Sequence record: MH051335.1
Length of the DNA stretch: 64,000 bases
Direction: 5' to 3' (one strand)
DNA from: Escherichia phage vB_EcoM-Ro157lw
A program made the translations under genes and the position numbers. Of this stretch, positions 36,070 to 47,126 are shown piece by piece. The notes beneath the pieces were generated by a model. It did no database searches. It was given only the letters and a program-made list of their open reading frames with translations, and was not told where the DNA came from. Position 1 is the stretch's first letter. Every line of letters begins with the position of its first letter.

Positions 36070-36488
36070 GACAATTCCTCTAAATACTTGATGATGTGAT
36101 GGATGGACCCGCTCGCGGCGACCATATCCAAAATCTCACCCTTAGTATATTCTTTTAATCGCAATGAAGGGTGAACTAAATAATAAGCCTTTTCAGAATC
36201 TACCTTCAGCAGCACAAATGACGAGAACTTCCAATCATTCCAAGAAGTCAAAAAGCTTTGTTGGCCTTTCTCAAATGCACTTTTAAAAGGAAGAGTGGTG
36301 GCCCTTGCAGGCCACGATTCAAAAAACTTCATTTCAAGCCAAAAGCCGCGCCCTTTCCGGTTGGTGCCGATTACATCCGGCACACCATCACCCGTCATGG
36401 ATTCGATTCTTTGAAGCTTCAGTACTGATTCTGAATGCTTCTTCAAAGGAACGAAAATGTATTTTTGTTCACGGTTATTTGTTGCCAT
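36066..36488 (-). CDS. VRR-NUC domain nuclease (PD-(D/E)xK fold)
   Basis: GVPDVIG...GFWLEMK matches the D...E-x-K catalytic pattern; adjacent to SNF2 helicase. Confidence 0.55.
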   Translation of the reverse strand: MATNNREQKYIFVPLKKHSESVLKLQRIESMTGDGVPDVIGTNRKGRGFWLEMKFFESWPARATTLPFKSAFEKGQQSFLTSWNDWKFSSFVLLKVDSEKAYYLVHPSLRLKEYTKGEILDMVAASGSIHHIIKYLEELS

Positions 36489-37131
36489 CTGGATACACCT
36501 GTTTGATCACGTCGACTATAAACATGTCAATGCCTTCAAGCTTTCGACCTTTCATCAGGAAGAATGCACCGTTCCCGACGTTCTCTGCAATGTATTTCCC
36601 GTATTTCTGGAACTTCTCTGGACGAATCCTGAAGCGCATTGGCGAGTCGGTCGAGTCGTCCTTGCACATAAGGTCGATGAACTGAGTTTCAAGCTTGTTT
36701 CCATACTGATCAAACTCTGCGTAGCGGCCATCGGCCTGAAGACCCTTTTTAAGCTTGCCGTGCTTTGTATAAATGCCGCGCTCAAGACGTTTACGGATGC
36801 GTGTTGCTTCGTTCTCGTCAGCCAGCACTTTCTTGGTCAACTTGCCGATTACTATTGCACGCTCGTCATCGCCGACTTCCTTCATCTGACGTATTGAAGC
36901 ACCGGAAGTAACGCCAATCAGATAGGGGTCATTATACGCCCAGCCAAACTTGGTGTGCATCTCTGTAAGGTCGCCGTATTTGACTTCAGCATTGGCCAAT
37001 GCATCCTTTTGTTTTTGCGTTAAGGTTCCGGCTTCACGTGCTTCGATGTACTTCATCGCTTTCACCATTCCGTACCCTTTAGCGTTCATGATGCCGCCAA
37101 TTAGCTTTCCGTTAGCGATTGGCCAATGCAT
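36475..37131 (-). CDS. dnaE: DNA polymerase III alpha-like protein, C-terminal fragment (separated from the N-terminal ORF by a frameshifting 127-bp duplication)
   Basis: First 45 residues duplicate the last 45 residues of the upstream ORF 37112-39499; removing one copy of the duplication fuses both ORFs in frame. Confidence 0.6.
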   Translation of the reverse strand: MHWPIANGKLIGGIMNAKGYGMVKAMKYIEAREAGTLTQKQKDALANAEVKYGDLTEMHTKFGWAYNDPYLIGVTSGASIRQMKEVGDDERAIVIGKLTKKVLADENEATRIRKRLERGIYTKHGKLKKGLQADGRYAEFDQYGNKLETQFIDLMCKDDSTDSPMRFRIRPEKFQKYGKYIAENVGNGAFFLMKGRKLEGIDMFIVDVIKQVYPDGNK

Positions 37132-37246
37132 CCTTTTGTTTTTGCGTTAAGGTTCCGGCTTCACGTGCTTCGATGTACTTCATCGCTTTCACCATTCCGT
37201 ACCCTTTAGCGTTCATGATGCCGCCAATTAGCTTTCCGTTAGCGAT
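36991..37246. repeat. perfect tandem duplication, unit 127 bp (two copies, 36991-37117 and 37118-37244, identity extends 2 nt further)
   Basis: seq[i] equals seq[i+127] across the whole span, read directly; lies inside the polymerase coding region. Confidence 0.9.
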
Positions 37247-39499
37247 GGTCCAGTTCATTGAAGAGTGATCAGGGTCGATTGGCACATAATCCACGCCTTC
37301 CTTTGCAAGTTCACGTAATATCGCAATCGTCTGGTCTTCGTCCTTGGCAGCGCGTAAGCAAGCAGCGGCAAATTCCAACGGATAGTGTCGTTTAAGCCAC
37401 AAGGTCCAGTAGGTCACGACCGCGTATGATACGGAGTGTGACTTGTTAAATCCCCATGACCCGAACGTCGCCATTGCTTGCCAAAGCTTTCTTGCATCAG
37501 CTTCCGGTACGCCGTTATTTATTGCGCCTGCAACGAAGTCTTCGCCAAGCTTGTTAAAGTATTCCTCACCCTTACGGCCTGACATCGCCTTACGTACAGC
37601 GGATGTCTTCGCCCAGTCAAATGAACCAATCTCTTTAACCACGGCCATGATTTGCTCTTGGTAAAGAAACACGCCGTAAGTCTCTTTTAAGTACGGCTCA
37701 AGCTGCGGCACGTCGTACTCAATCGGCGCACGTCCTGCCGCGCGTTCGATGTATTTCTGGGCCATACCGGATGACAACGGGCCAGGTCGGCCAAGTGCTG
37801 TCAGGTTATCGATTTTGTTAAAGTTATCAACGTGCACAAAGTTGGTTACTGAGCGTACAGCGTCGCCTTCGAACTGGAAGATTCCTGACATCTTATTTTC
37901 GTTAAGGATGTCAAGGACGCTTTGATCATTGAGCTTGATTCCGTACAGTGTTTCAGCATCTATCACGCCAGTATCAGAAATGATGCCGAGGGTACGAAGG
38001 CCCAATGCATCAAGCTTCAAAAGGTTAAGGTATTCGCTGTCAGGCTTATCAATTTGTGCAATCCCTTCCGCCGTTACCGTACAGTAATCAGAGATTGGAT
38101 CATTACACACGATGATTCCCGCTGCGTGAACGCCAGTGTGGGAAGGGTGAATTTCAAGGTCACCCATGCATCGCGCGGCATCAGGATATTTAGCCACAAA
38201 CTCTTGGCCCGTGGTCGTTGTTGCAAAGGTGTCCTCCAGGCCGTGGCCATAACGGGCGTCACCGGATGAGTATTCAAGCAATGCGTTTTTAATGTTGGCC
38301 GTTTCGTGATATCCAATGTTGAATTTCTTACCAACCTGAGCCATTACTGAGTTGGCCTTAAGCGTGTTGATGTTGCCAAGCTTTGCAACGTTCATTTCGC
38401 CGTATTTTTCTTTAAGGTAATCAAACACCATATAGCGTTTGGTATCCTCAAAGTCAATATCAATATCAGGAAGGTCTGCGCGGCTTACGTCAATGAATCG
38501 GGCAAACAGTAGCTTATACGGGATTGGGTCAACTTCCGTGATGCCGAGGCAATAACAAACCAGTGAACCAGCCGATGAGCCGCGAGCGGGTCCGACGAGC
38601 ATTTTTGTTTTTGCGAATCGTACAAGGTCCGCTACCACCAGAAAGTATGAGTCGAAATCTTTCAGCTGAATCTGGTGAATCTCTTCGTTGAATCGGTCCT
38701 CATATTCCTGAGTCCATTCTTTGATGTGGCCTGCCTTAAGGCGGTACTCCATCCCCTCACGAGCAAGCTTTACCATGTCACCAGCAAGGTGGATAATCGG
38801 TGCCTTGCGCAGCTTCAGGTCAAGTCCCACGATTCCGTTTGCAATGTCAACTGCATTGGCCGTTGCTTGATTCAACTCATCTTCGGTCAATATTCCTTTA
38901 AGCTGTTTGCGCAAGTCTTCCGCGTCAACGATACAGTGCGGCTTGACCGTGTCGCGCACTTCCCAAGCATAAGCAAAGTCAACGTGCTCAGGTGAAGGCA
39001 TGTGGTTGTATCCGGTTAAAACCAGCGGCCTTCCGTTGCTGCGGTGAGCCAATACCTGGCGCTTGGCCAAAAGGAACGATGATGGGTTGACGTCTATATA
39101 ATCGTAGTCCTCTGGCCGCAGCAACTCCACGGCCCCGCCACAGAATTTAACGACGCCATCGAGCGCCCCGAACTCTGCACGGGTCAGTCCGCCGCGCTGT
39201 GTTGCAAGCGTGGTCGCGTTGTAAAAGGATTTCAGGTCAAGCGCCAATATCCAAGCCTTCGGTTTGAATCCCTTTTTCGGGTCCGCATCAGGGTCGATGA
39301 TTGGAATTTCCATGCCGAACATAGGCTTAATATCATTTTTCTGGCACTCCTTTTCCCATCGAACGTGACCCCATGTATTGTTATCAACTAATGCCGCGAC
39401 TTCGCAGCCCAACTCTTTGAGCCGTGCTATAATTTCAGGATGCCGTCCATATACTTCTTTGAACGTGTAACCGCTGCGAACTCTCAATTGTGGAAACAT
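37112..39499 (-). CDS. dnaE: DNA polymerase III alpha-like replicative polymerase (PHP plus polymerase core), N-terminal 795 aa
   Basis: N-terminal PHP-like domain and large polymerase core; TAATG overlap with the upstream exonuclease gene. Confidence 0.75.
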   Translation of the reverse strand: MFPQLRVRSGYTFKEVYGRHPEIIARLKELGCEVAALVDNNTWGHVRWEKECQKNDIKPMFGMEIPIIDPDADPKKGFKPKAWILALDLKSFYNATTLATQRGGLTRAEFGALDGVVKFCGGAVELLRPEDYDYIDVNPSSFLLAKRQVLAHRSNGRPLVLTGYNHMPSPEHVDFAYAWEVRDTVKPHCIVDAEDLRKQLKGILTEDELNQATANAVDIANGIVGLDLKLRKAPIIHLAGDMVKLAREGMEYRLKAGHIKEWTQEYEDRFNEEIHQIQLKDFDSYFLVVADLVRFAKTKMLVGPARGSSAGSLVCYCLGITEVDPIPYKLLFARFIDVSRADLPDIDIDFEDTKRYMVFDYLKEKYGEMNVAKLGNINTLKANSVMAQVGKKFNIGYHETANIKNALLEYSSGDARYGHGLEDTFATTTTGQEFVAKYPDAARCMGDLEIHPSHTGVHAAGIIVCNDPISDYCTVTAEGIAQIDKPDSEYLNLLKLDALGLRTLGIISDTGVIDAETLYGIKLNDQSVLDILNENKMSGIFQFEGDAVRSVTNFVHVDNFNKIDNLTALGRPGPLSSGMAQKYIERAAGRAPIEYDVPQLEPYLKETYGVFLYQEQIMAVVKEIGSFDWAKTSAVRKAMSGRKGEEYFNKLGEDFVAGAINNGVPEADARKLWQAMATFGSWGFNKSHSVSYAVVTYWTLWLKRHYPLEFAAACLRAAKDEDQTIAILRELAKEGVDYVPIDPDHSSMNWTIANGKLIGGIMNAKGYGMVKAMKYIEAREAGTLTQKQKDALANR

Positions 39500-40094: not shown

Positions 40095-40646
40095 TTATGC
40101 AGTGTACGGAGTACCATCTTGATTCAACCGCACGATGAACTTAAGGTCGACGCCGATGATTTCACGCGTATCAAAGATCACATAGTTGTAACGACGCTGA
40201 CCAGCAATATTTGGGTTGGTGTGAGAGTCAGTTACAACTTCCTGCGCAACCTGAATGCCTTCTTCTTTAAAGAACTTGCGCCATTCAGCGAGTTCAGCGG
40301 CAGTCACGTGCATACCAAGATGGCTAACCTGATTGTCGTGTGCATCAATATATTCGATGTTTTCGTTAATCCAGTTGCGACCTTTCGTGTAGTCAAGAAT
40401 TTCAAGTTCAAGAGGCTTACCAGCGCCGCCATCGGTGCCGTTGCCAGCTTGATAGTTGAAGCGCAAGTCAGCTTCGTTGGTGCAATCGCCGCGCTGACCT
40501 TTAAAGTCATCAGCTTCAAATACGCGACCAGTAGCAACAACATGATCATGGAACCATTCTGTCAGGCCGATTTTAGCCAGAAAATCCTGTGCGCGCTGAG
40601 CATCTGGAATTGACAGGGCGATTTGTTCAATTTTAAAGTGTGGCAT
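40095..40646 (-). CDS. VOC-family (glyoxalase/bleomycin-resistance/dioxygenase fold) protein
   Basis: Two beta-alpha-beta modules with IEQIALSIPD and SHLGMHV metal-site-like patterns; motif-level only. Confidence 0.4.
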   Translation of the reverse strand: MPHFKIEQIALSIPDAQRAQDFLAKIGLTEWFHDHVVATGRVFEADDFKGQRGDCTNEADLRFNYQAGNGTDGGAGKPLELEILDYTKGRNWINENIEYIDAHDNQVSHLGMHVTAAELAEWRKFFKEEGIQVAQEVVTDSHTNPNIAGQRRYNYVIFDTREIIGVDLKFIVRLNQDGTPYTA

Positions 40647-40666
40647 TTTGTTTCCTTAATTAAATA

Positions 40667-40837
40667 TTATTGATTAATTACTGTGTTGCCTTCGATGGAA
40701 TAAGTCTCAATGGAACCGACGCGCTCGTGGTTAATCTTTGCGTTTTCGATTCTTATTACTTCAAATCCAACGCCTTCTTGATCAATCTTCACTTCTGCCA
40801 CGTCGCCAATCACTTCTACAACAACTTTGATAGTCAT
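40667..40837 (-). CDS. small hypothetical protein (56 aa)
   Basis: Translated by hand: MTIKVVVEVIGDVAEVKIDQEGVGFEVIRIENAKINHERVGSIETYSIEGNTVINQ; fills the gap between VOC and SDR genes. Confidence 0.3.
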   Translation of the reverse strand: MTIKVVVEVIGDVAEVKIDQEGVGFEVIRIENAKINHERVGSIETYSIEGNTVINQ

Positions 40838-40840
40838 GAT

Positions 40841-41524
40841 TTATTTCCCAAATGGAATATCAGTACCAGACATAAAGCGCCATGCGCCCGTAATTAAGAT
40901 ATGGCGAATGAAGTCAGCAATTACTTGCGGCTCAGTCTCCAATCCGTTCATCAATGCCTTTTTCTGGTATTCAGCGGCATACTCAGGAGTCCAGCCGCGA
41001 GTCGCGCAAACAGCATCTTCAATCTGTTTGGACATGCCAGTACCACGTAGCTTGTTAGGACTAATAGAGAATACCGTGATCCCGTATTTAGGCGTAAGCT
41101 CGTGAGCCATCTGCTTGCTAATCATAAGCGCAGCAGCCTTGGATGCATTATAACACAAGCTGGACGTCATAGGAATATGCGCAGCATTAGAAACGATATT
41201 GATCACAAAACCTTTGTTGTCGATAAGACTTTTCAGCGCGGCCTGAGTCGTGTTGACGAAAGAGAAGGCGTTGGTGTGCATAACGCGATTGAACTCTTCG
41301 TAGTTAACATCTTCGAACCAGTTGTTGGAGTTGACGCCAGCGCAGTTGATCAAGCCTTCTACGTCGTATTGAGAGAGAAGCTCTTTCATCTGTTTCGCGT
41401 TACGGATGTCATAGCCGTTCTCCAAATCAATACCGACAACTTCATGACCGTAAGCGCCAAGGGTGTCAAAAATGGATTTACCAAGACCGGAATTGCAGCC
41501 AGTTACAACAATTACTTTTTTCAT
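40841..41524 (-). CDS. short-chain dehydrogenase/reductase (SDR)
   Basis: Cofactor motif VTGCNSGLGK (TGxxxGxG) and catalytic YNASK (YxxxK). Confidence 0.7.
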   Translation of the reverse strand: MKKVIVVTGCNSGLGKSIFDTLGAYGHEVVGIDLENGYDIRNAKQMKELLSQYDVEGLINCAGVNSNNWFEDVNYEEFNRVMHTNAFSFVNTTQAALKSLIDNKGFVINIVSNAAHIPMTSSLCYNASKAAALMISKQMAHELTPKYGITVFSISPNKLRGTGMSKQIEDAVCATRGWTPEYAAEYQKKALMNGLETEPQVIADFIRHILITGAWRFMSGTDIPFGK

Positions 41525-41589: not shown

Positions 41590-42462
41590 CTATTTATTGA
41601 AATTAATATTATGGGTGTTAACAAGACGTTCACACATGGCGCTGTAAACACCATCATCGTGTATAGAGTCTTCGTGCTTCAGGCCGCTGATTGCGAAGCG
41701 TGTAAGCTTGACAATCTTAAGCTCGAACAGATGCCACATGTGGTAGTCTTCCGGCGTTTTCAACGTCACGCCATTAGGGAAAAGCACTTGCATAACCTGA
41801 CCTACCATCACAGCGTTATCGCCATAGACAGCGTTGCGCTCACGGAAGGTTGCTGCCATTGCATCAAGAATATCGGCGGCAGTTGCCGGAGATTGTTCAA
41901 CTTCCACAGCCTTAGTCTCTTCTTGCCCTGTTGCGCTTGGATCAATTGCTAATTGTTGCACCACTTCACCTGCCTTGCAAAGATTAAATGTAAAAGCGAT
42001 TTTATTTTGAGCAACGGAATTATAATACAATGCTTCATCTTGCATCCGCGCGAGTACGTCTTGTCGGTCGTCGAATACATTGATGATTCGATAATCGCCG
42101 TGCCGCAATGCGTGCGATAGCCATGCAGATTTCATAATAGTTGATGGACGTTTGTCGCCATAGTCTCTCATCTTGATTGTAAATTCATCAAAAGGAAAAA
42201 CATTATCCAGACGTTCAAAAGTCACTTGTCTGTATTTTTCTGGCCTTGCAGTCCAATATTCAACCGCCTCACCGCGAAGAGATGCCGACTCTACTGCTGA
42301 TGCAATGTGAGGATAGAACTGATCATAACCAATACCGCTGTGATAGTCATCATAGTCTGACGACGGACCTGCCACCTTTATGCGGTCTAAGCGCCAACGG
42401 TCATCAAACAGCGTTCCGTCAAGGTCGAATACATTTAAGATTTCGCTGTTTTTAATGCTCAT
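41590..42462 (-). CDS. HAD-family phosphatase domain fused to a C-terminal domain of unknown function
   Basis: Motif I FDLDGTL (DxDGT), later NVFDDRQD; C-terminal 140 aa alpha-helical with acidic patches. Confidence 0.5.
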   Translation of the reverse strand: MSIKNSEILNVFDLDGTLFDDRWRLDRIKVAGPSSDYDDYHSGIGYDQFYPHIASAVESASLRGEAVEYWTARPEKYRQVTFERLDNVFPFDEFTIKMRDYGDKRPSTIMKSAWLSHALRHGDYRIINVFDDRQDVLARMQDEALYYNSVAQNKIAFTFNLCKAGEVVQQLAIDPSATGQEETKAVEVEQSPATAADILDAMAATFRERNAVYGDNAVMVGQVMQVLFPNGVTLKTPEDYHMWHLFELKIVKLTRFAISGLKHEDSIHDDGVYSAMCERLVNTHNINFNK

Positions 42463-43289
42463 CCTTTTGATACTCCATCTTTAGCAACTGGATTGTTGGT
42501 GATTGGCATCGCACTCCAAAACTGGATGCGCAACTCTTCTTGCTGTGCCGTGGTATCCATCCAATCACGATACCAAGGGCAATGGGCTTTGCCATGACGA
42601 GGAAACGCGCATTTACCCATACCGATGCATTGCGGCTGTAATAATGGATTTGCCCACGGGTGCACCTTGAGGACTTCCGCAACCATTGCGCGGAATACTT
42701 CTTGATACTCGCCTTGAGTGCGCGTGCACAAGCGGTTTGACGCCATCTGCTGCAGCGTGCGCAAGTTGAACTTTGCCATGATATGCGTTTGCATATTAGA
42801 AGGCAACACGGCACGTGCATCTTGAATCTCTGCGCCAGCCGCGCGAAGCTCTTGATACAAAGCATCGATAGTCGCCATCGCATCATCCCACTTCTCTGCT
42901 AAGTATTGCTTTTGAAGTAAAGATTGGTGCTCTTCATCAGTCCCAAACGCTTCACATTGATCAATCAACTCTGGATTTTGGTGTGAGAATGCCTTCGGAC
43001 GAATCGCATCAAATGCAGACGACTCCTGAGCGCGGCTGGTACGTTCTTGATATGCGCCTGTGCGTGTGCGCACCATCTGATGGGTCATGTTCTTTGAAAC
43101 ATCGGTGATGTCAAAGATATAGTCCACAAAGTCAAAAGGCGACTTGATTGTATCAAGCATGTAGCGCCAGTGCTCTTGCTTCTCTGATTCCGTCATCTCA
43201 GAGACAGGCTTGCCAGTCATGCGCGTGTTCTTTGTTTCCAGCAAAAGGTCAAGTGCATCTTGGGTGTATCGAATTAATTTAACTTTCAT
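42459..43289 (-). CDS. thyX: flavin-dependent thymidylate synthase ThyX-like, with Cys-rich C-terminal extension
   Basis: RTRTGAYQERTSR aligns with ThyX motif RHRxxxYxQxSxR; VLPSNMQTH...PW matches the conserved ThyX C-terminal block; extra CIGMGKCAFPRHGKAHCPW tail. Confidence 0.65.
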   Translation of the reverse strand: MKVKLIRYTQDALDLLLETKNTRMTGKPVSEMTESEKQEHWRYMLDTIKSPFDFVDYIFDITDVSKNMTHQMVRTRTGAYQERTSRAQESSAFDAIRPKAFSHQNPELIDQCEAFGTDEEHQSLLQKQYLAEKWDDAMATIDALYQELRAAGAEIQDARAVLPSNMQTHIMAKFNLRTLQQMASNRLCTRTQGEYQEVFRAMVAEVLKVHPWANPLLQPQCIGMGKCAFPRHGKAHCPWYRDWMDTTAQQEELRIQFWSAMPITNNPVAKDGVSKG

Positions 43290-43302: not shown

Positions 43303-43749
43303 TTAACGGTAGTTCACTAGTTGCTGATCACCAGAGAAGGTGCAATGATAAACAAATTGTGCATTATAAAGCAACTGAAAACTTTTCTTTGGTTCACTAT
43401 TAGCACTCATCGATGTGAATACTTCTGCACCGGAACGGTTTTCACCGATTAAGTTGACAAAGCCGCCAGTTGTGCGAGGTTGAACGAAAGTGAAACGTTG
43501 CATCCACGGAGTCCGGTTGACACCTTTTCCGGTGAATCCTTGAATCTGAATATTCAGACCTTCTTGCTCATTCACACCGATGTAAGTGGTAATCTTCGCA
43601 CCAGTCGTTGCTGCGGTCTTACCGTCCATCGCTTCGCAATCATAAACAGCGATTGAATCGGAAGTACGGATGGCAGCTTCAGTCGCTTCCATATACATGG
43701 TGCCGAGAATAGCAGTTGCGGCAAGCGCGATTCCAGTGATTCGTTTCAT
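43303..43749 (-). CDS. secreted protein (148 aa) with N-terminal signal peptide
   Basis: MKRITGIALAATAILGTMYMEATEA signal-like N-terminus. Confidence 0.45.
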   Translation of the reverse strand: MKRITGIALAATAILGTMYMEATEAAIRTSDSIAVYDCEAMDGKTAATTGAKITTYIGVNEQEGLNIQIQGFTGKGVNRTPWMQRFTFVQPRTTGGFVNLIGENRSGAEVFTSMSANSEPKKSFQLLYNAQFVYHCTFSGDQQLVNYR

Positions 43750-43814: not shown

Positions 43815-44810
43815 TTATTTATTAGCAATATAAGCAAATTTTTGATAGTTATTTGCTTTGATGAGTTTTTCAACTTCAACAAGATCATGAGCGACGTCAT
43901 CAAGCAAAATGTTTCGCCAGGTAGCAAATCGACCGACACTAAACACGTTCAAATCCATAGTCAGCTGCAGGAGTAAGGCGTGTCGCAAGTCTTTCGGAAT
44001 GTCGACAATCTTTCCATATTTCTGGTCGACCTTTTCAACTTCTTCAAGAGCGATGTCACTCCATGAGAGGCCAAATGCCGTCAGCACCTCGTCGACTTCT
44101 GCGCGCAGCTTGATGTCACGGTAACGAGTGATGCCGCCAGCGGCTTCAACTGCAGCTTCACTTACGCTGACCAAAGGAATTGTTTCAATGATAAGCGTGT
44201 CACCAGTAATTGATGCGCGGTAAGTTCTGACGGAGTAGTCAGGGAAGTAAATTGTCTGATACAAATCACACTTACGTTTAATCTTAAAGCGGTAAACACG
44301 AATGTTTGCTTTATCAAATGAGAAATCAAGCTTTTGATCAATCCCAGCCAGCTTCATCATGACTGGCAGCGGCGACGTGTTGATGATTGGCGTCTCGCTA
44401 TAGCCGCAAAGAGTATCAACCGGAGTATTAAAGAATATGCGGTCACCCAGTTTGTCGACAAGCTGATCATAAAAGTCATCAGGCGCAATATAACGCGTTG
44501 CAGTCTTAAGATTCATGATTGAACGGCTGCCAAACTGATTGGTGACCTTCATGGAATACATATTGGCAAGGTTGATTGGGCAATGGTCGTGGTAGTAGTT
44601 GCCGCGAAAATACACAGCCTTGTCAACTGTCACTGCCTTAAAAGGGATTCCGGTAATACGGCTTACTTCTTCGCCACGGAAGCGTAGCAGCGCCTTGTGC
44701 TGTTGCGCTCGCTCCCCTGCTTCGTACACAACAGAGTTCGGGAAGTGACACGCTGTGATAAGTCCTGCCAATCCGCCGCCGATAATCATTACAGGTTGTT
44801 TCATGTTCAT
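43815..44810 (-). CDS. FAD/NAD(P)-binding Rossmann-fold oxidoreductase
   Basis: N-terminal dinucleotide-binding motif VMIIGGGLAGL; family not assignable by eye. Confidence 0.5.
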   Translation of the reverse strand: MNMKQPVMIIGGGLAGLITACHFPNSVVYEAGERAQQHKALLRFRGEEVSRITGIPFKAVTVDKAVYFRGNYYHDHCPINLANMYSMKVTNQFGSRSIMNLKTATRYIAPDDFYDQLVDKLGDRIFFNTPVDTLCGYSETPIINTSPLPVMMKLAGIDQKLDFSFDKANIRVYRFKIKRKCDLYQTIYFPDYSVRTYRASITGDTLIIETIPLVSVSEAAVEAAGGITRYRDIKLRAEVDEVLTAFGLSWSDIALEEVEKVDQKYGKIVDIPKDLRHALLLQLTMDLNVFSVGRFATWRNILLDDVAHDLVEVEKLIKANNYQKFAYIANK

Positions 44811-44942: not shown

Positions 44943-45782
44943 TTATTCCGCTTGATCACCGTCTTCGGCATCTTCGTTGGATTCAACATCGACAAACTCG
45001 ATGTGGCCCATCTCTTCCAGCTTGCTCAGGTAGGAGCGAACGGAAGCGCCAAACAGTTGATCTTTAACTTTTTCGCCCAGCTCATCGATAGACTGCGCCA
45101 CGCCAACTTCGCCTTCTTTGATCGCCGCCAGAACGCGTCCACGGGTGGAATGCTCTTGCGGCTGGCTCAGGCCATTGCCAGTGTAGATGAAGTGGGTTGC
45201 TTTTGCGCGACGCTGACCGTTTGCCTTTTTAGCAGCCTTACGTTCTGCGATGGCTTTGCGACGTTCTTCAGCTTCTTTCTTACGCTGTTCTTTCTGCTTT
45301 TCTGCAGCTTCTTTAGCCGCAATCTTAGCAGCTTCACGCTCTGCCTTGCGTTTCGCTTTAGCTTCTTCTTTGGCCTTCTCTTTTTCGGCCTTCGCTGCAG
45401 CACGGGCTTGATCACGCTCTGCTTTCTTAGCAGCAGCTTGTTCAGCTTTCAGGCGCTTGGCTTCTTCTTTGGCCTTTGCCTTTTCGATTTCTTTTGCTGC
45501 TTTAGCGGCTTCACGCTCTGCTTTCTTAGCAGCTGCTTTTTCTGCACGCTCTTTGGCTTTCTTCGCTGCTTCTTCAGCACGTTTCTGTGCTTTCTCATCA
45601 GCGGCCTGCTTGCGTTTCAGTGCAGCTTCTTCACGCTTGGCTTGTTTTTCCTGCTCACGCTTCTGGCGTTTTTCTTCGGCTTCTTTCTTTTTAGCCAGGC
45701 GTTTTTCTTCAGCCACGCGACGACGTTCTGCTGCAGCTGCTTGTTTTTCTTCTTTAGATAATACTTTGATTGCTTCGGCCAT
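44943..45782 (-). CDS. Lys/Ala/Glu-rich low-complexity protein with small globular C-terminal domain
   Basis: About 200 residues of KxAExxAK-type repeats, then about 80 non-repetitive C-terminal residues. Confidence 0.5.
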   Translation of the reverse strand: MAEAIKVLSKEEKQAAAAERRRVAEEKRLAKKKEAEEKRQKREQEKQAKREEAALKRKQAADEKAQKRAEEAAKKAKERAEKAAAKKAEREAAKAAKEIEKAKAKEEAKRLKAEQAAAKKAERDQARAAAKAEKEKAKEEAKAKRKAEREAAKIAAKEAAEKQKEQRKKEAEERRKAIAERKAAKKANGQRRAKATHFIYTGNGLSQPQEHSTRGRVLAAIKEGEVGVAQSIDELGEKVKDQLFGASVRSYLSKLEEMGHIEFVDVESNEDAEDGDQAE

Positions 45783-45941
45783 ATTCACAGTCCTTAAATA
45801 AATTAGTTTATTTTATATTCCCCGTTTGGGATAACTTAATTATGCCTTCAGTCGCCGCCAGTAGCAACTAAAAACTCTGGCGGCAATGCCACTTTAATTA
45901 AACTGATTTTCAGTTTTATTTTTCGTAAATTTACGTCAACA

Positions 45942-47126
45942 TTAACGCGCTTTCAAATCACGGTACACAGTCAGATTCTTCTTAGCGCGGGTAATAGCTG
46001 TATACATCATCTTGGCATACGGAACGCCGCGCAAGATTTCTTCCAGCACGCACACATTGTCCCACTCGCTGCCTTGAGATTTGTGCACCGTTATGACATA
46101 GCCATAGTCCATTCCTCCAACAGCGCGTTGGGCCTCTTTGCGCACTTCCTGATCAGTAGAGAAGGAAAGAGGATTTATCTTAACCTTTATATCTTTGCCA
46201 TCGGTAAGCGAGCGCAAATTTACATACATTATTTCATTGGACTCATCTTCATCCCTTTCAAAGTCCGGTACTGGCTCATAACTAATAACAATCCCTTGCT
46301 CGCCATTACAGAATCCTGGACCGTGTTGGTTGAATGTACAAATAACTTTCTCGCCGATTCCTGGCATTGGCGTTATACGTCCGCTCACTTGTCGCAATAA
46401 TGAATTCCATTTATCTTTAGTGCTATTATATGAGCAAATAATTTGATCATCTTCGCCCATGAATTTCTTCAGTGCGGTAACGCGCGGCGATTCAGCCAAC
46501 ACCTTTACGTCATCGTATTCACGCGGAGGAAGTCGGTTGCCCTGTCGCACGAAGAAGGAAGCGCGGATTATGTTGGACTCTTTTCCCTGCCGCATGATTT
46601 CGGTTAACAGTACGTCAACGGCATCTTCAGTAAAGTAGGCGGCGGCTTTTACCGGAGGGACTTGCCCAATGTCGCCTAATGCCAGCACAGGGATGCGGTG
46701 ATCAAGAAGGCGCTCTGTGTCCCACTCGCCAACCATTGAAGCTTCATCAAGGACTACAAGATGCGGCTTTTCGTCCAGCTTTGACTTTCTCGAAAATATT
46801 GGCTCATTGTCGTCATTTACGCCGCGAACGTTATAGATGAACTGGTGAAGGGTCTTCGCGCCACGACACCCTTTCTGCTTCAATCGGCTGGCGGCCTTTC
46901 CGGTCGGCGCAATATAAATGGCACCGTACTCACCGACACAACGGCGCACAATCTCACGCGCAATAGAGGTTTTACCTGTTCCTGCATAGCCAGCGATGAA
47001 AAACACGCGCTTCGTCGTTTTACCGTCCTGCAATCGCTTGTACCATGCAACGGCCTTTTCGATGGCATCAATCTGTTGCGCGTTAAACTGAATCGCTGGC
47101 TCATTATTAAATTCTGGAATGTTCAT
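45942..47126 (-). CDS. SF1 DNA helicase (Dda/RecD-like)
   Basis: Walker A AGYAGTGKT, Walker B VLDEASM, VITVHKSQGSEWDNV and YTAITRAK motifs. Confidence 0.75.
   Translation of the reverse strand: MNIPEFNNEPAIQFNAQQIDAIEKAVAWYKRLQDGKTTKRVFFIAGYAGTGKTSIAREIVRRCVGEYGAIYIAPTGKAASRLKQKGCRGAKTLHQFIYNVRGVNDDNEPIFSRKSKLDEKPHLVVLDEASMVGEWDTERLLDHRIPVLALGDIGQVPPVKAAAYFTEDAVDVLLTEIMRQGKESNIIRASFFVRQGNRLPPREYDDVKVLAESPRVTALKKFMGEDDQIICSYNSTKDKWNSLLRQVSGRITPMPGIGEKVICTFNQHGPGFCNGEQGIVISYEPVPDFERDEDESNEIMYVNLRSLTDGKDIKVKINPLSFSTDQEVRKEAQRAVGGMDYGYVITVHKSQGSEWDNVCVLEEILRGVPYAKMMYTAITRAKKNLTVYRDLKAR

What the first reader, a model, noticed from the sequence alone, without database searches (positions are those of the whole stretch)
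42459..43289. ThyX-like enzyme with R-T-R in place of R-H-R and a Cys-rich C-terminal tail
The core aligns to ThyX (RTRTGAYQERTSR versus RHRxxxYxQxSxR; VLPSNMQTH...PW), but the motif His is replaced by Thr and about 60 extra C-terminal residues contain CIGMGKCAFPRHGKAHCPW, a possible metal-binding cluster. This may indicate altered chemistry, such as a different pyrimidine product, or a regulatory appendage.
Basis: partly seen in the sequence, partly recalled or inferred. Interest (0 to 1): 0.45.

Follow-up and report, generated by a model that had tools for sequence, protein, structure and literature searches.

The report
Divergent phage ThyX with four-cysteine site
This E. coli phage gene encodes a real but strongly divergent member of the flavin-dependent thymidylate synthase (ThyX) family that lacks three residues normally conserved in ThyX, carries a probable four-cysteine metal site, and probably, though unproven, still makes thymidylate.

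Summary
ORF 42459-43289 (minus strand, 276 aa) is a Thy1/ThyX-fold protein (Pfam 1.2e-29) with R-T-R in place of R-H-R and a 64-residue C-terminal extension. The window is a Wifcevirus (E. coli myophage, PB1-like). RTR is present in 119 of 120 close homologues. The metal-site candidates are four invariant cysteines: C188 in the core plus C221, C227 and C237. Thr-for-His is not special: that position is T/H/Q/S/N across a large phage clade. More telling, the clade also replaces T. maritima ThyX H53 (here I48) and Y91 (here A87), called conserved and critical in the ThyX literature, while keeping all dUMP-binding residues. The Cys4 extension is optional, because Cys-less relatives sit in the same gene context. 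The gene belongs to a conserved module with a UDP-galactopyranose-mutase-fold protein and a HAD phosphatase; in a Rhizobium phage this lies next to dUTPase and RNR. Best reading: a divergent phage thymidylate synthase with an accessory, probably structural, metal site (confidence about 0.5). Altered product chemistry is not excluded. I found no description of this subfamily in the searchable literature.

The parts
42459..43289 (-). ThyX-like ORF, 276 aa plus stop; divergent Thy1-family flavoenzyme
42654..43277 (-). Thy1 domain (residues 5-212)
   Evidence: Pfam PF02511 E 1.2e-29; Foldseek top hits are all ThyX or PolB; coordinates
43032..43070 (-). ThyX-motif equivalent R74-T75-R76-x7-T84-S85-R86. 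T. maritima R78, R80 and R90 are retained, H79 becomes T and S88 becomes T. The next residue, A87 (43029-43031), replaces Y91.
43128..43154 (-). DTIKSPFDF (residues 46-54), equivalent to T. maritima H51-G-H53-E-T-P-F-E-H59. The folate/flavin-stacking H53 is replaced by invariant I48.
   Evidence: role of H53 from PMC11940539
42708..42734 (-). R186-L-C188-T-R190-T-Q-G-E194. R186 corresponds to T. maritima R174 (dUMP-binding, from my recollection of the structure). C188 is the core ligand candidate of the Cys4 site. R190 replaces T. maritima H178.
42462..42653 (-). 64-residue C-terminal extension (residues 213-276), absent from all solved ThyX
42579..42629 (-). C221-x5-C227-x9-C237, the three tail cysteines of the putative Cys4 metal site. 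Some homologues carry a 20-40 residue insertion between the second and third Cys.
42462..42500 (-). Conserved extreme C-terminal tail TNNPVAKDGVSKG. N266, P267, A269 and G272 are invariant in the family. A related P-V-A-x-x-G-(K/R)-(S/T)-M tail occurs in more distant Cys4 members, and NPLSPTG occurs in mycobacteriophage SirHarley.
   Evidence: pLDDT below 50 in the monomer model
43815..44810 (-). Conserved partner gene: 331-aa two-domain flavoprotein-fold protein (phrog_4828) with an N-terminal GxGxxG motif. Closest fold is UDP-galactopyranose mutase.
   Evidence: co-location
41590..42462 (-). Conserved partner gene: HAD/PNKP-type phosphatase domain plus an uncharacterised C-terminal domain (phrog_4889). 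Its ATG overlaps the ThyX-like TGA (ATGA at 42459-42462).
40841..41524 (-). Accessory SDR (FabG-like) gene in the same operon. Absent from Pbunavirus PS44; present, sometimes twice, in other lineages.
40095..40646 (-). Accessory 183-aa protein with a weak glyoxalase/VOC-fold match
   Evidence: E 8e-4, below the Pfam cut-off

Best explanation
The ORF encodes a flavin-dependent, ThyX-fold enzyme of a phage-specific, strongly divergent Thy1 subfamily. It most likely still binds dUMP and transfers a one-carbon unit to C5, making dTMP for the phage's own Pol III-alpha-type replication module.

Shown:
- Thy1 fold.
- Retention of the dUMP-contacting residues (T. maritima Q75, R78, R80, E86, S88 as Thr, R90, R147, R174).
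- Family-wide invariance of RTR and of four cysteines.
- Strict co-occurrence of core C188 with the tail cysteines.
- Placement in a conserved module with a UGM-fold flavoprotein-like gene and a HAD phosphatase.

Inferred:
- T75 substitutes for the FAD-phosphate-contacting His without abolishing FAD binding.
- C188, C221, C227 and C237 bind one metal ion, most likely structural Zn. This pins the 64-residue extension onto the helix that follows the dUMP-binding Arg. The appendage is accessory because Cys-less relatives work in the same context.
- The enzyme compensates for losing the H53-Y91 pair with other residues or partners.
For: - Pfam Thy1 E 1.2e-29 and PHROG 85 E 2e-38. The AF2 model matches only ThyX and PolB structures. 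The family profile matches ThyX in the PDB at 3.5e-9.
- dUMP-binding residues named in PMC3498832 (R78, R80, S88, R90) are conserved here as R74, R76, T84 and R86; R159 and R186 are also invariant.
- The family has 707 homologues, nearly all full length on contigs of about 60-74 kb, with 60+ invariant positions, which indicates purifying selection.
- There is no ThyA or second ThyX in the 64-kb window.
- In Rhizobium phage RHph_TM30 the orthologous module lies beside dUTPase and both RNR subunits, the classical dTMP-supply context.
- Cys4: 119 of 120 close homologues and 81 of 150 clade representatives have R-x-C ... C-x5-C-x7/9-C. There are zero cases of the tail Cys pair without C188.
- Cys-less short members sit in identical synteny.
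- PCR-made, unmodified Wifcevirus DNA is infectious (PMC11074155).
Against: - TIGR02170 (thyX equivalog) scores 79.8, below its 87.9 cut-off.
- Three residues treated as conserved or critical in canonical ThyX are replaced throughout the clade: H53 to I/L/V, H79 to T/Q/S/N, and Y91 to A/V/T/I/F. Y91 mutation slows flavin oxidation about 1000-fold in T. maritima ThyX (PMC11940539).
- I found no member of this clade with a biochemical assay. L5 gp48, which I recall as an assayed phage ThyX, is canonical.
- The tight association with an unexplained UGM-fold flavoprotein and a phosphatase is not needed by a canonical ThyX.
- Wifcevirus phages resist most tested RM systems without a known protection mechanism (PMC11990801).
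- The metal is unidentified. The AF2 confidence in the extension is only about 62-76, and I could not inspect coordinates.
Confidence: 0.5

Rival explanations
1. Altered product chemistry. The enzyme binds dUMP and forms the flavin-N5-methylene adduct and exocyclic-methylene intermediate as ThyX does. Having lost the H53-Y91 pair, it releases a different C5-substituted nucleotide (for example 5-hydroxymethyl-dUMP by water capture). The UGM-fold flavoprotein and HAD phosphatase process or police the pool. The result is a partly modified phage DNA.
For: - Clade-wide loss of H53, H79 and Y91 while dUMP ligands are kept. Y91 and S88 are assigned to the carbinolamine and methylene transfer step (PMC11940539 and PMC8316439).
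- The exocyclic methylene intermediate is a known branch point for nucleophile capture (discussion in PMC8989533).
- The four-family module is conserved in at least four phage lineages.
Against: - Wifcevirus DNA is a normal PCR template, and PCR-derived canonical DNA reboots the phage.
- These genomes are routinely sequenced. JG024 DNA cuts as predicted with SacII, although that site has no T.
- No kinase, transferase or glycosyltransferase typical of hypermodification pathways was found in the window.
- The Rhizobium-phage context is dUTPase plus RNR, that is, ordinary dTMP supply.
- No other thymidylate synthase is encoded, so the phage would have to rely on host ThyA for T.
Confidence: 0.15
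2. Still a thymidylate synthase, but redox-rewired. The four cysteines hold an Fe-S cluster close to the FAD. C188 lies two residues after the Arg that I recall as touching both dUMP and FAD. The flavin is then reduced by one-electron donors or by the neighbouring flavoprotein instead of by direct NADPH binding at the folate/H53 site.
For: - The residues lost (H53, Y91) line the folate/NADPH side of the flavin.
- The Cys4 site is anchored next to the R186/R190 flavin-contact helix.
- A flavoprotein-fold gene with GxGxxG is the most conserved neighbour.
- Several viral Cys4 'zinc' sites have turned out to bind Fe-S clusters (titles and abstracts listed).
Against: - The two features are uncoupled. 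The flavoprotein gene accompanies Cys-less ThyX-like genes (L008, RHph_TM30). Cys4 ThyX-like genes occur in Mycobacterium phages, and tblastn found no flavoprotein homologue there.
- The Cys-less members also lack H53 and Y91.
- The spacing C-x5-C-x9-C with a tolerated 20-40 residue insertion looks like a structural knuckle.
- No sequence-level match to any Fe-S family was found.
Confidence: 0.12
3. A non-catalytic or regulatory nucleotide-binding protein: a ThyX-fold pseudoenzyme that senses or sequesters dUMP or FAD within the replication module.
For: The protein scores below the equivalog cut-off. Residues called critical for catalysis are replaced.
Against: The Arg, Gln, Glu and Ser/Thr residues that position dUMP and the flavin are invariant over 40-60% sequence divergence. 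Inteins interrupt the Thy1 domain in three clade members; from my knowledge, inteins typically sit in essential, active enzymes. The clade is very large: 342 cluster representatives at E <= 1e-10.
Confidence: 0.05

Closest known systems
Canonical ThyX / FDTS (T. maritima TM0449, M. tuberculosis Rv2754c, PBCV-1 A674R; EC 2.1.1.148)
   Same: Thy1 fold. The dUMP-contacting residues Q75, R78, R80, E86, S88 (as Thr), R90, R147 and R174 are conserved, as are the LPxN and NxR segments. It sits in a phage or viral DNA-precursor context.
   Different: About 18-21% identity; pairwise tblastn with T. maritima ThyX finds nothing. H53 becomes Ile, H79 becomes Thr, Y91 becomes Ala, N85 becomes Gln and H178 becomes Arg. 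It has a 64-residue C-terminal extension with a Cys4 signature and a conserved tail, and it scores below the TIGR02170 cut-off.
Mycobacteriophage L5 gp48 (phage ThyX)
   Same: A phage-encoded Thy1 protein next to replication and RNR genes.
   Different: L5 gp48 is canonical: GHESVFEH, RHR, SQRY, no Cys4 and no extension. It therefore cannot vouch for the activity of the divergent clade.
'ThyX-like thymidylate synthase' of cluster D mycobacteriophages (e.g. SirHarley gp71)
   Same: It belongs to the same divergent clade. It has R-Q-R, the RLC core Cys, C-x6-C-x9-C and an NP(L)xxxG tail.
   Different: 27% identity, large internal insertions, 366 aa. tblastn detected no flavoprotein partner in Mycobacterium phages.
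PolB (Streptomyces cacaoi UMP/dUMP C5-methylase, PDB 4P5A/4P5B)
   Same: A Thy1-fold enzyme that shows the fold can serve a substrate or pathway other than dTMP supply. It appears among the structural matches.
   Different: The sequence match is only marginal (E 0.16). It is not phage-borne and has no Cys4 extension.
UDP-galactopyranose mutase / protoporphyrinogen oxidase / amine-oxidase flavoproteins (for the neighbour gene 43815-44810)
   Different: 331 aa versus 390-510 aa. There is no sequence-level match beyond the dinucleotide-binding motif. Substrate unknown.

Membership tests
Thy1 superfamily (Pfam PF02511) | Significant match to the Thy1 profile above the gathering score | tested here: met
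   104 bits versus a cut-off of 24.8, E 1.2e-29, residues 5-212
Thy1 superfamily (Pfam PF02511) | ThyX fold | tested here: met
   AF2 model with pLDDT 74. All top Foldseek PDB hits are ThyX or PolB, with E about 1e-6 and TM 0.45-0.6
ThyX / FDTS equivalog (TIGR02170, EC 2.1.1.148) | Score at or above the curated equivalog cut-off | tested here: not met
   79.8 bits versus a cut-off of 87.9
ThyX / FDTS equivalog (TIGR02170, EC 2.1.1.148) | ThyX motif R-H-R-x7-S | tested here: not met
   The sequence is R-T-R-x7-T. The two Arg are kept, His becomes Thr and Ser becomes Thr. This holds in 119 of 120 close homologues
ThyX / FDTS equivalog (TIGR02170, EC 2.1.1.148) | dUMP-binding residues (T. maritima R78, R80, S88, R90; also Q75, R147, R174) | tested here: met
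   R74, R76, T84, R86, Q71, R159 and R186 are invariant. Residue roles are from PMC3498832
ThyX / FDTS equivalog (TIGR02170, EC 2.1.1.148) | Conserved Tyr91 (proposed general acid) and His53 (folate/flavin stacking) | tested here: not met
   A87 and I48 are invariant in the family. In the top 150 clade representatives the H53 position is I/L/V in 118 of 124, and the Y91 position is Tyr in only 12. Residue roles are from PMC11940539
ThyX / FDTS equivalog (TIGR02170, EC 2.1.1.148) | Binds FAD and is a homotetramer with active sites at subunit interfaces | not testable with these tools
   Only a monomer model was made, and its coordinates could not be inspected
ThyX / FDTS equivalog (TIGR02170, EC 2.1.1.148) | Converts dUMP to dTMP with CH2-THF and NAD(P)H; complements thyA | not testable with these tools
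   No assay of any member of this clade was found in 10 literature searches
Metal-binding (Zn or Fe-S) protein | Four conserved Cys (or Cys/His) ligands that co-occur | tested here: met
   C188, C221, C227 and C237 are invariant. 81 of 150 representatives carry all four. There are no cases of the tail Cys pair without C188
Metal-binding (Zn or Fe-S) protein | Ligands converge in 3D; metal present | not testable with these tools
UDP-galactopyranose mutase (for neighbour 43815-44810) | Sequence-level membership (GLF/UGM profile) | tested here: not met
   No Pfam, NCBIfam or PDB sequence match for the single sequence or the profile. The similarity is at fold level only

The most novel reading that the evidence does not exclude
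The divergent ThyX-like enzyme (which lacks H53, H79 and Y91), the UGM-fold flavoprotein, the HAD phosphatase and the uncharacterised 'domain X' form a conserved phage pathway. That pathway makes or maintains a non-canonical C5-substituted pyrimidine nucleotide, or makes dTMP by a folate- or NADPH-independent route. It would underlie the so far unexplained broad restriction resistance of Wifcevirus phages and possibly of therapeutic PB1-like Pseudomonas phages.
Probability: 0.12. Interest if true: 0.85.

Novelty: new variant of a known kind. Interest (0 to 1): 0.45.

Why it matters
ThyX is an antibiotic target, and its mechanism has been built on a few canonical enzymes in which H53, S88 and Y91 are treated as conserved and critical.

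- A large, strongly conserved phage clade does without H53, H79 and Y91. It gave 342 cluster representatives at E <= 1e-10, and its close family occurs in hundreds of sequenced PB1-like and Wifcevirus genomes. Either those residues are not universally required, or the clade performs different chemistry. A simple enzyme assay would decide between these.
- The Cys4 appendage would be the first metal site I could find reported for this fold.
- The module's conserved partners are uncharacterised.
- PB1-like phages are among the most used therapeutic Pseudomonas phages, and Wifcevirus shows unexplained restriction resistance. Knowing what nucleotide this module produces therefore has practical relevance.

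Tried and rejected
- **Thr-for-His as a unique catalytic switch: rejected.** The position is T, H, Q, S or N across the clade, and RHR members carry the same Cys4 site.
Those histidines are not conserved. The fourth ligand candidate is core C188.
- **Fe-S relay from the neighbouring flavoprotein: weakened.** The flavoprotein and Cys4 are phyletically uncoupled.
- **Fusion partners as functional hints: a dead end.** The long clade members contain inteins or unannotated N-terminal regions only.
- **Naming clade members through cluster look-up:** almost all are unnamed metagenomic proteins.
- **The HAD protein's C-terminal domain as an all-alpha NTP pyrophosphatase (DUF6378-like):** this was my recollection, but no Pfam or PDB match supported it.
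- **The UGM 'GRLxxYxYxxMD'-like motif in the neighbour:** also from memory, and not supported at sequence-profile level. Only the fold matches.
- **A second thymidylate synthase in the window:** none found.
- **Literature on metal-containing ThyX, the Pbunavirus ThyX or DNA modification in these phages:** nothing found in 10 searches. Key mutagenesis papers (PMC2258874, PMC3465422) are not held.
- **Cys-Cys distances:** I could not read model coordinates, so these were not measured.
Full report
**1. The observation**

The finding's coordinates delimit an ORF on the minus strand, 42459-43289, ATG to TGA, 276 aa. It matches Pfam Thy1 (PF02511) over residues 5-212 with E 1.2e-29, and PHROG 85 'thymidylate synthase' with E 2e-38. 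It falls below the curated cut-off of the NCBIfam thyX equivalog TIGR02170 (79.8 versus 87.9 bits).

Single-sequence comparison with solved ThyX chains is weak (best E about 1e-3). Pairwise tblastn with T. maritima ThyX does not find the ORF at all. A profile of the family matches solved ThyX at 3.5e-9, but only over profile positions 32-203. An AlphaFold2 model (pLDDT 74) retrieves only ThyX and PolB structures.

The extension beyond the Thy1 domain is 64 residues.

**2. Origin and family**

The window is a Wifcevirus, a roughly 68-kb E. coli myophage. It is 98% identical to FEC19 and 95% identical to BASEL phage Bas99. Full-length homologues occur in these groups:

- Serratia MyoSmar: 78% identity.
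- Erwinia: 81% identity.
- Pantoea: 62% identity.
- Xanthomonas Carpasinavirus: 55% identity.
- Burkholderia phages: 53% identity.
- Hundreds of Pseudomonas Pbunavirus (PB1-like) genomes: 48% identity.

In total there are 707 homologues, nearly all 250-300 aa on contigs of about 60-74 kb. In an 18-sequence alignment reaching 60% identity, R74-T75-R76 is invariant. So are four cysteines (C188, C221, C227, C237), H210, W212 and a C-terminal N-P-x-A-x-x-G tail. Some members carry a 20-40 residue insertion between the second and third tail Cys. On raw sequences, 119 of 120 close homologues have RTR, R-x-C, C-x5-C and a further Cys.

**3. The wider clade**

An exhaustive HMMER search of 1.84 billion cluster representatives found 1535 proteins at E <= 1e-3 and 342 at E <= 1e-10. 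I aligned the best 150 to the family profile, with T. maritima ThyX as reference. Its sequence, recalled from memory, proved identical to PDB 1KQ4 residues 13-232. The alignment showed the following:

| Feature | Result in the top 150 |
|---|---|
| Middle residue of R-x-R | T 73, H 32, Q 12, S 10, N 6 |
| Members with core Cys, tail Cys pair and middle residue H | 28 |
| Members with core Cys, tail Cys pair and middle residue T | 22 |
| Members with middle residue T, no cysteines and no extension | 45 |
| Tail Cys pair without core C188 | never |
| Members with all four cysteines (raw-sequence regex) | 81, with spacing C-x5-C then 7 or 9 residues |

Thr-for-His and the Cys4 site are therefore independent, and both are widespread.

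The T. maritima mapping is more informative. The substrate-side residues are kept:

| T. maritima ThyX | This protein |
|---|---|
| Q75 | Q71 |
| R78 | R74 |
| R80 | R76 |
| E86 | E82 |
| S88 | T84 |
| R90 | R86 |
| R147 | R159 |
| N163 | N175 |
| R165 | R177 |
| R174 | R186 |

Several other residues are replaced:

| T. maritima ThyX | This protein | Across the top 150 |
|---|---|---|
| H53 | I48 | I/L/V in 118 of 124 scored |
| H79 | T75 | variable (T/H/Q/S/N) |
| Y91 | A87 | Tyr in only 12 |
| H178 | R190 | mostly R, also K or Q |

The ThyX literature calls Tyr91 and Ser88 strictly conserved and critical. Y91 mutation slows flavin oxidation about 1000-fold. H53 stacks on folate or on the reduced flavin and hydrogen-bonds to Y91 (PMC11940539; PMC8316439). 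R78, R80, S88 and R90 are the conserved dUMP ligands (PMC3498832). This clade therefore keeps the nucleotide site but has rebuilt the folate/NADPH side of the flavin.

Mycobacteriophage L5 gp48 is fully canonical (GHESVFEH, RHR, SQRY). The cluster-D mycobacteriophage 'ThyX-like' protein SirHarley gp71 belongs to the divergent clade: it has RQR, RLC, C-x6-C-x9-C and an NPLSPTG tail.

**4. Gene context**

In the window, all on the minus strand, the order is:

1. Dda-like helicase (45942-47126).
2. A K/A/E-rich 281-aa protein.
3. A 331-aa protein with an N-terminal GxGxxG motif (43815-44810, phrog_4828).
4. A 148-aa signal-peptide-like protein.
5. The ThyX-like gene.
6. A HAD/PNKP-phosphatase protein with an unknown C-terminal domain (41590-42462, phrog_4889).
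7. An SDR.
8. A protein with a weak VOC (glyoxalase-fold) match.
9. A DEDDh exonuclease.
10. The Pol III-alpha-like polymerase.

The ThyX-like stop codon and the HAD start codon overlap as ATGA, which suggests translational coupling.

The trio of flavoprotein-fold gene, ThyX-like gene and HAD gene is syntenic in these places:

- Pbunavirus PS44 and Carpasinavirus FoX6.
- Two distant metagenomic phage contigs, L008 and L010. Their flavoprotein homologues are 36% identical, with E 5e-54 and 6e-48.
- The unrelated 207-kb Rhizobium phage RHph_TM30. Its flavoprotein is 34% identical (E 1e-61), and the HAD protein's C-terminal domain is 43% identical (E 2e-22). There the module lies beside dUTPase and both RNR subunits.

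L008 and RHph_TM30 have Cys-less, short ThyX-like proteins. Conversely, tblastn detected no flavoprotein homologue in Mycobacterium or Gordonia phages, which have Cys4 forms. The Cys4 appendage is therefore an optional accessory of the enzyme. The flavoprotein partnership is a separate, older feature of the divergent clade.

**5. What it most likely is**

The conserved nucleotide-binding residues point to a working thymidylate synthase that supplies the phage's own replication module. So do strong purifying selection, the absence of any other thymidylate synthase in the window, and the dUTPase/RNR neighbourhood in the Rhizobium phage.

From my recollection of the 1O26 structure, H79 and H178 contact the FAD phosphates. 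Thr and Arg could do the same, so T75 need not change the chemistry.

The four cysteines most plausibly bind one structural metal ion. They are invariant and co-occurring. One lies on the helix following the dUMP-binding Arg and three lie in the extension. A long insertion is tolerated between the second and third tail Cys. Such a site would fasten the extension to the core. An Fe-S cluster is not excluded.

The invariant extreme C-terminal tail has pLDDT below 50 in the monomer model. It probably docks on another subunit or on a partner. This is inference only.

I put about 0.5 on 'bona fide dTMP synthase with an accessory structural metal site'.

**6. Rivals**

(a) Altered product, for example 5-hm-dUMP. 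[quoted passage not shown] Against it:

- Wifcevirus DNA is PCR-amplifiable, and PCR-made canonical DNA reboots the phage (PMC11074155).
- No downstream modification enzymes are recognisable.
- The Rhizobium-phage context is ordinary dTMP supply.

(b) An Fe-S-mediated or partner-mediated flavin reduction. This is weakened by the phyletic uncoupling described above.

(c) A pseudoenzyme. This is unlikely given the invariant catalytic-site arginines and the inteins that interrupt the Thy1 domain in three clade members.

**7. Comparison with the known, and novelty**

The gene is already annotated 'thymidylate synthase' or 'ThyX' in GenBank records, so the gene itself is not new. It is a member of the Thy1 superfamily. 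It fails three tests of the ThyX equivalog: the cut-off score, the R-H-R-x7-S motif, and the Y91/H53 pair. Its activity is untested.

Ten full-text searches found no description of a Cys4 or metal-binding ThyX, of this subfamily's missing residues, or of the conserved flavoprotein/HAD partnership. The library lacks most subscription papers, so this is only absence of evidence.

I classify it as a new variant of a known kind, of moderate interest (0.45). A single enzyme assay plus metal analysis would settle whether it is ordinary dTMP synthesis by an unorthodox active site or something more unusual.

**8. Limits**

- Model coordinates could not be inspected, so Cys convergence is unverified.
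- Only monomers were modelled.
- Roles of H79 and H178 and the full FAD-contact list rest on my memory of the 1O26 structure paper.
- The ThyX mutagenesis papers PMC2258874 and PMC3465422 were not available.

Noticed in passing
window 36991-37244: A perfect 127-nt tandem duplication (36991-37117 = 37118-37244) lies inside the Pol III-alpha-like gene. It splits the gene into ORFs 37112-39499 and 36475-37131. All 12 listed Wifcevirus relatives lack it. From my knowledge, 127 is the maximal SPAdes k-mer, so this is most likely the junction of a circularised or permuted assembly rather than biology.
   Followed up: yes
[not shown]
   Followed up: partly
window 41590-42462 (-): A HAD/PNKP-type phosphatase is fused to a roughly 105-residue C-terminal domain with no Pfam or PDB match. 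That domain is conserved in Rhizobium phage RHph_TM30 (43% identity) and is encoded as a separate 222-aa gene in metagenomic contig L010. Its start codon overlaps the ThyX-like stop codon (ATGA).
   Followed up: partly
window 43303-43749 (-): A 148-aa ORF has an N-terminal signal-peptide-like hydrophobic segment and no family match. It sits between the flavoprotein-fold gene and the ThyX-like gene. In Pbunavirus PS44 several small ORFs occupy this slot.
   Followed up: no
window 44943-45788 (-): A 281-aa lysine/alanine/glutamate-rich low-complexity protein (annotated 'TolA protein' in some records; phrog_4765) has a non-repetitive C-terminal part. It is conserved next to the Dda-like helicase in PB1-like phages.
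   Followed up: no
window 40095-41524 (-): An SDR (FabG-like, Pfam 1e-31) and a 183-aa protein with a weak VOC/glyoxalase match are inserted in the replication operon. They are absent in Pbunavirus PS44. An SDR-like gene ('putative 3-oxoacyl-(acyl)-carrier protein') occupies the same position in Xanthomonas FoX6, and SDR genes are duplicated in metagenomic contig L008. This small-molecule redox chemistry has no known role.
   Followed up: no
P0160, P0168, P0261 (clade members): Inteins interrupt the Thy1 domain of several divergent-clade ThyX-like proteins. The Thy1 match resumes at profile position about 65-71 after the intein.
   Followed up: partly
L010 7077-8774: A distant ThyX-like protein with R-H-H in place of R-x-R, which still has the Cys signature, is preceded by a 169-aa SAM-methyltransferase-domain gene within the same module.
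   Followed up: no
whole window (Wifcevirus): The BASEL study reports Wifcevirus phages as insensitive to all tested defence systems, including RM, except EcoP1_I. It names no known protection mechanism. I recognised no anti-restriction or base-modification gene among the ORFs I scanned.
   Followed up: partly
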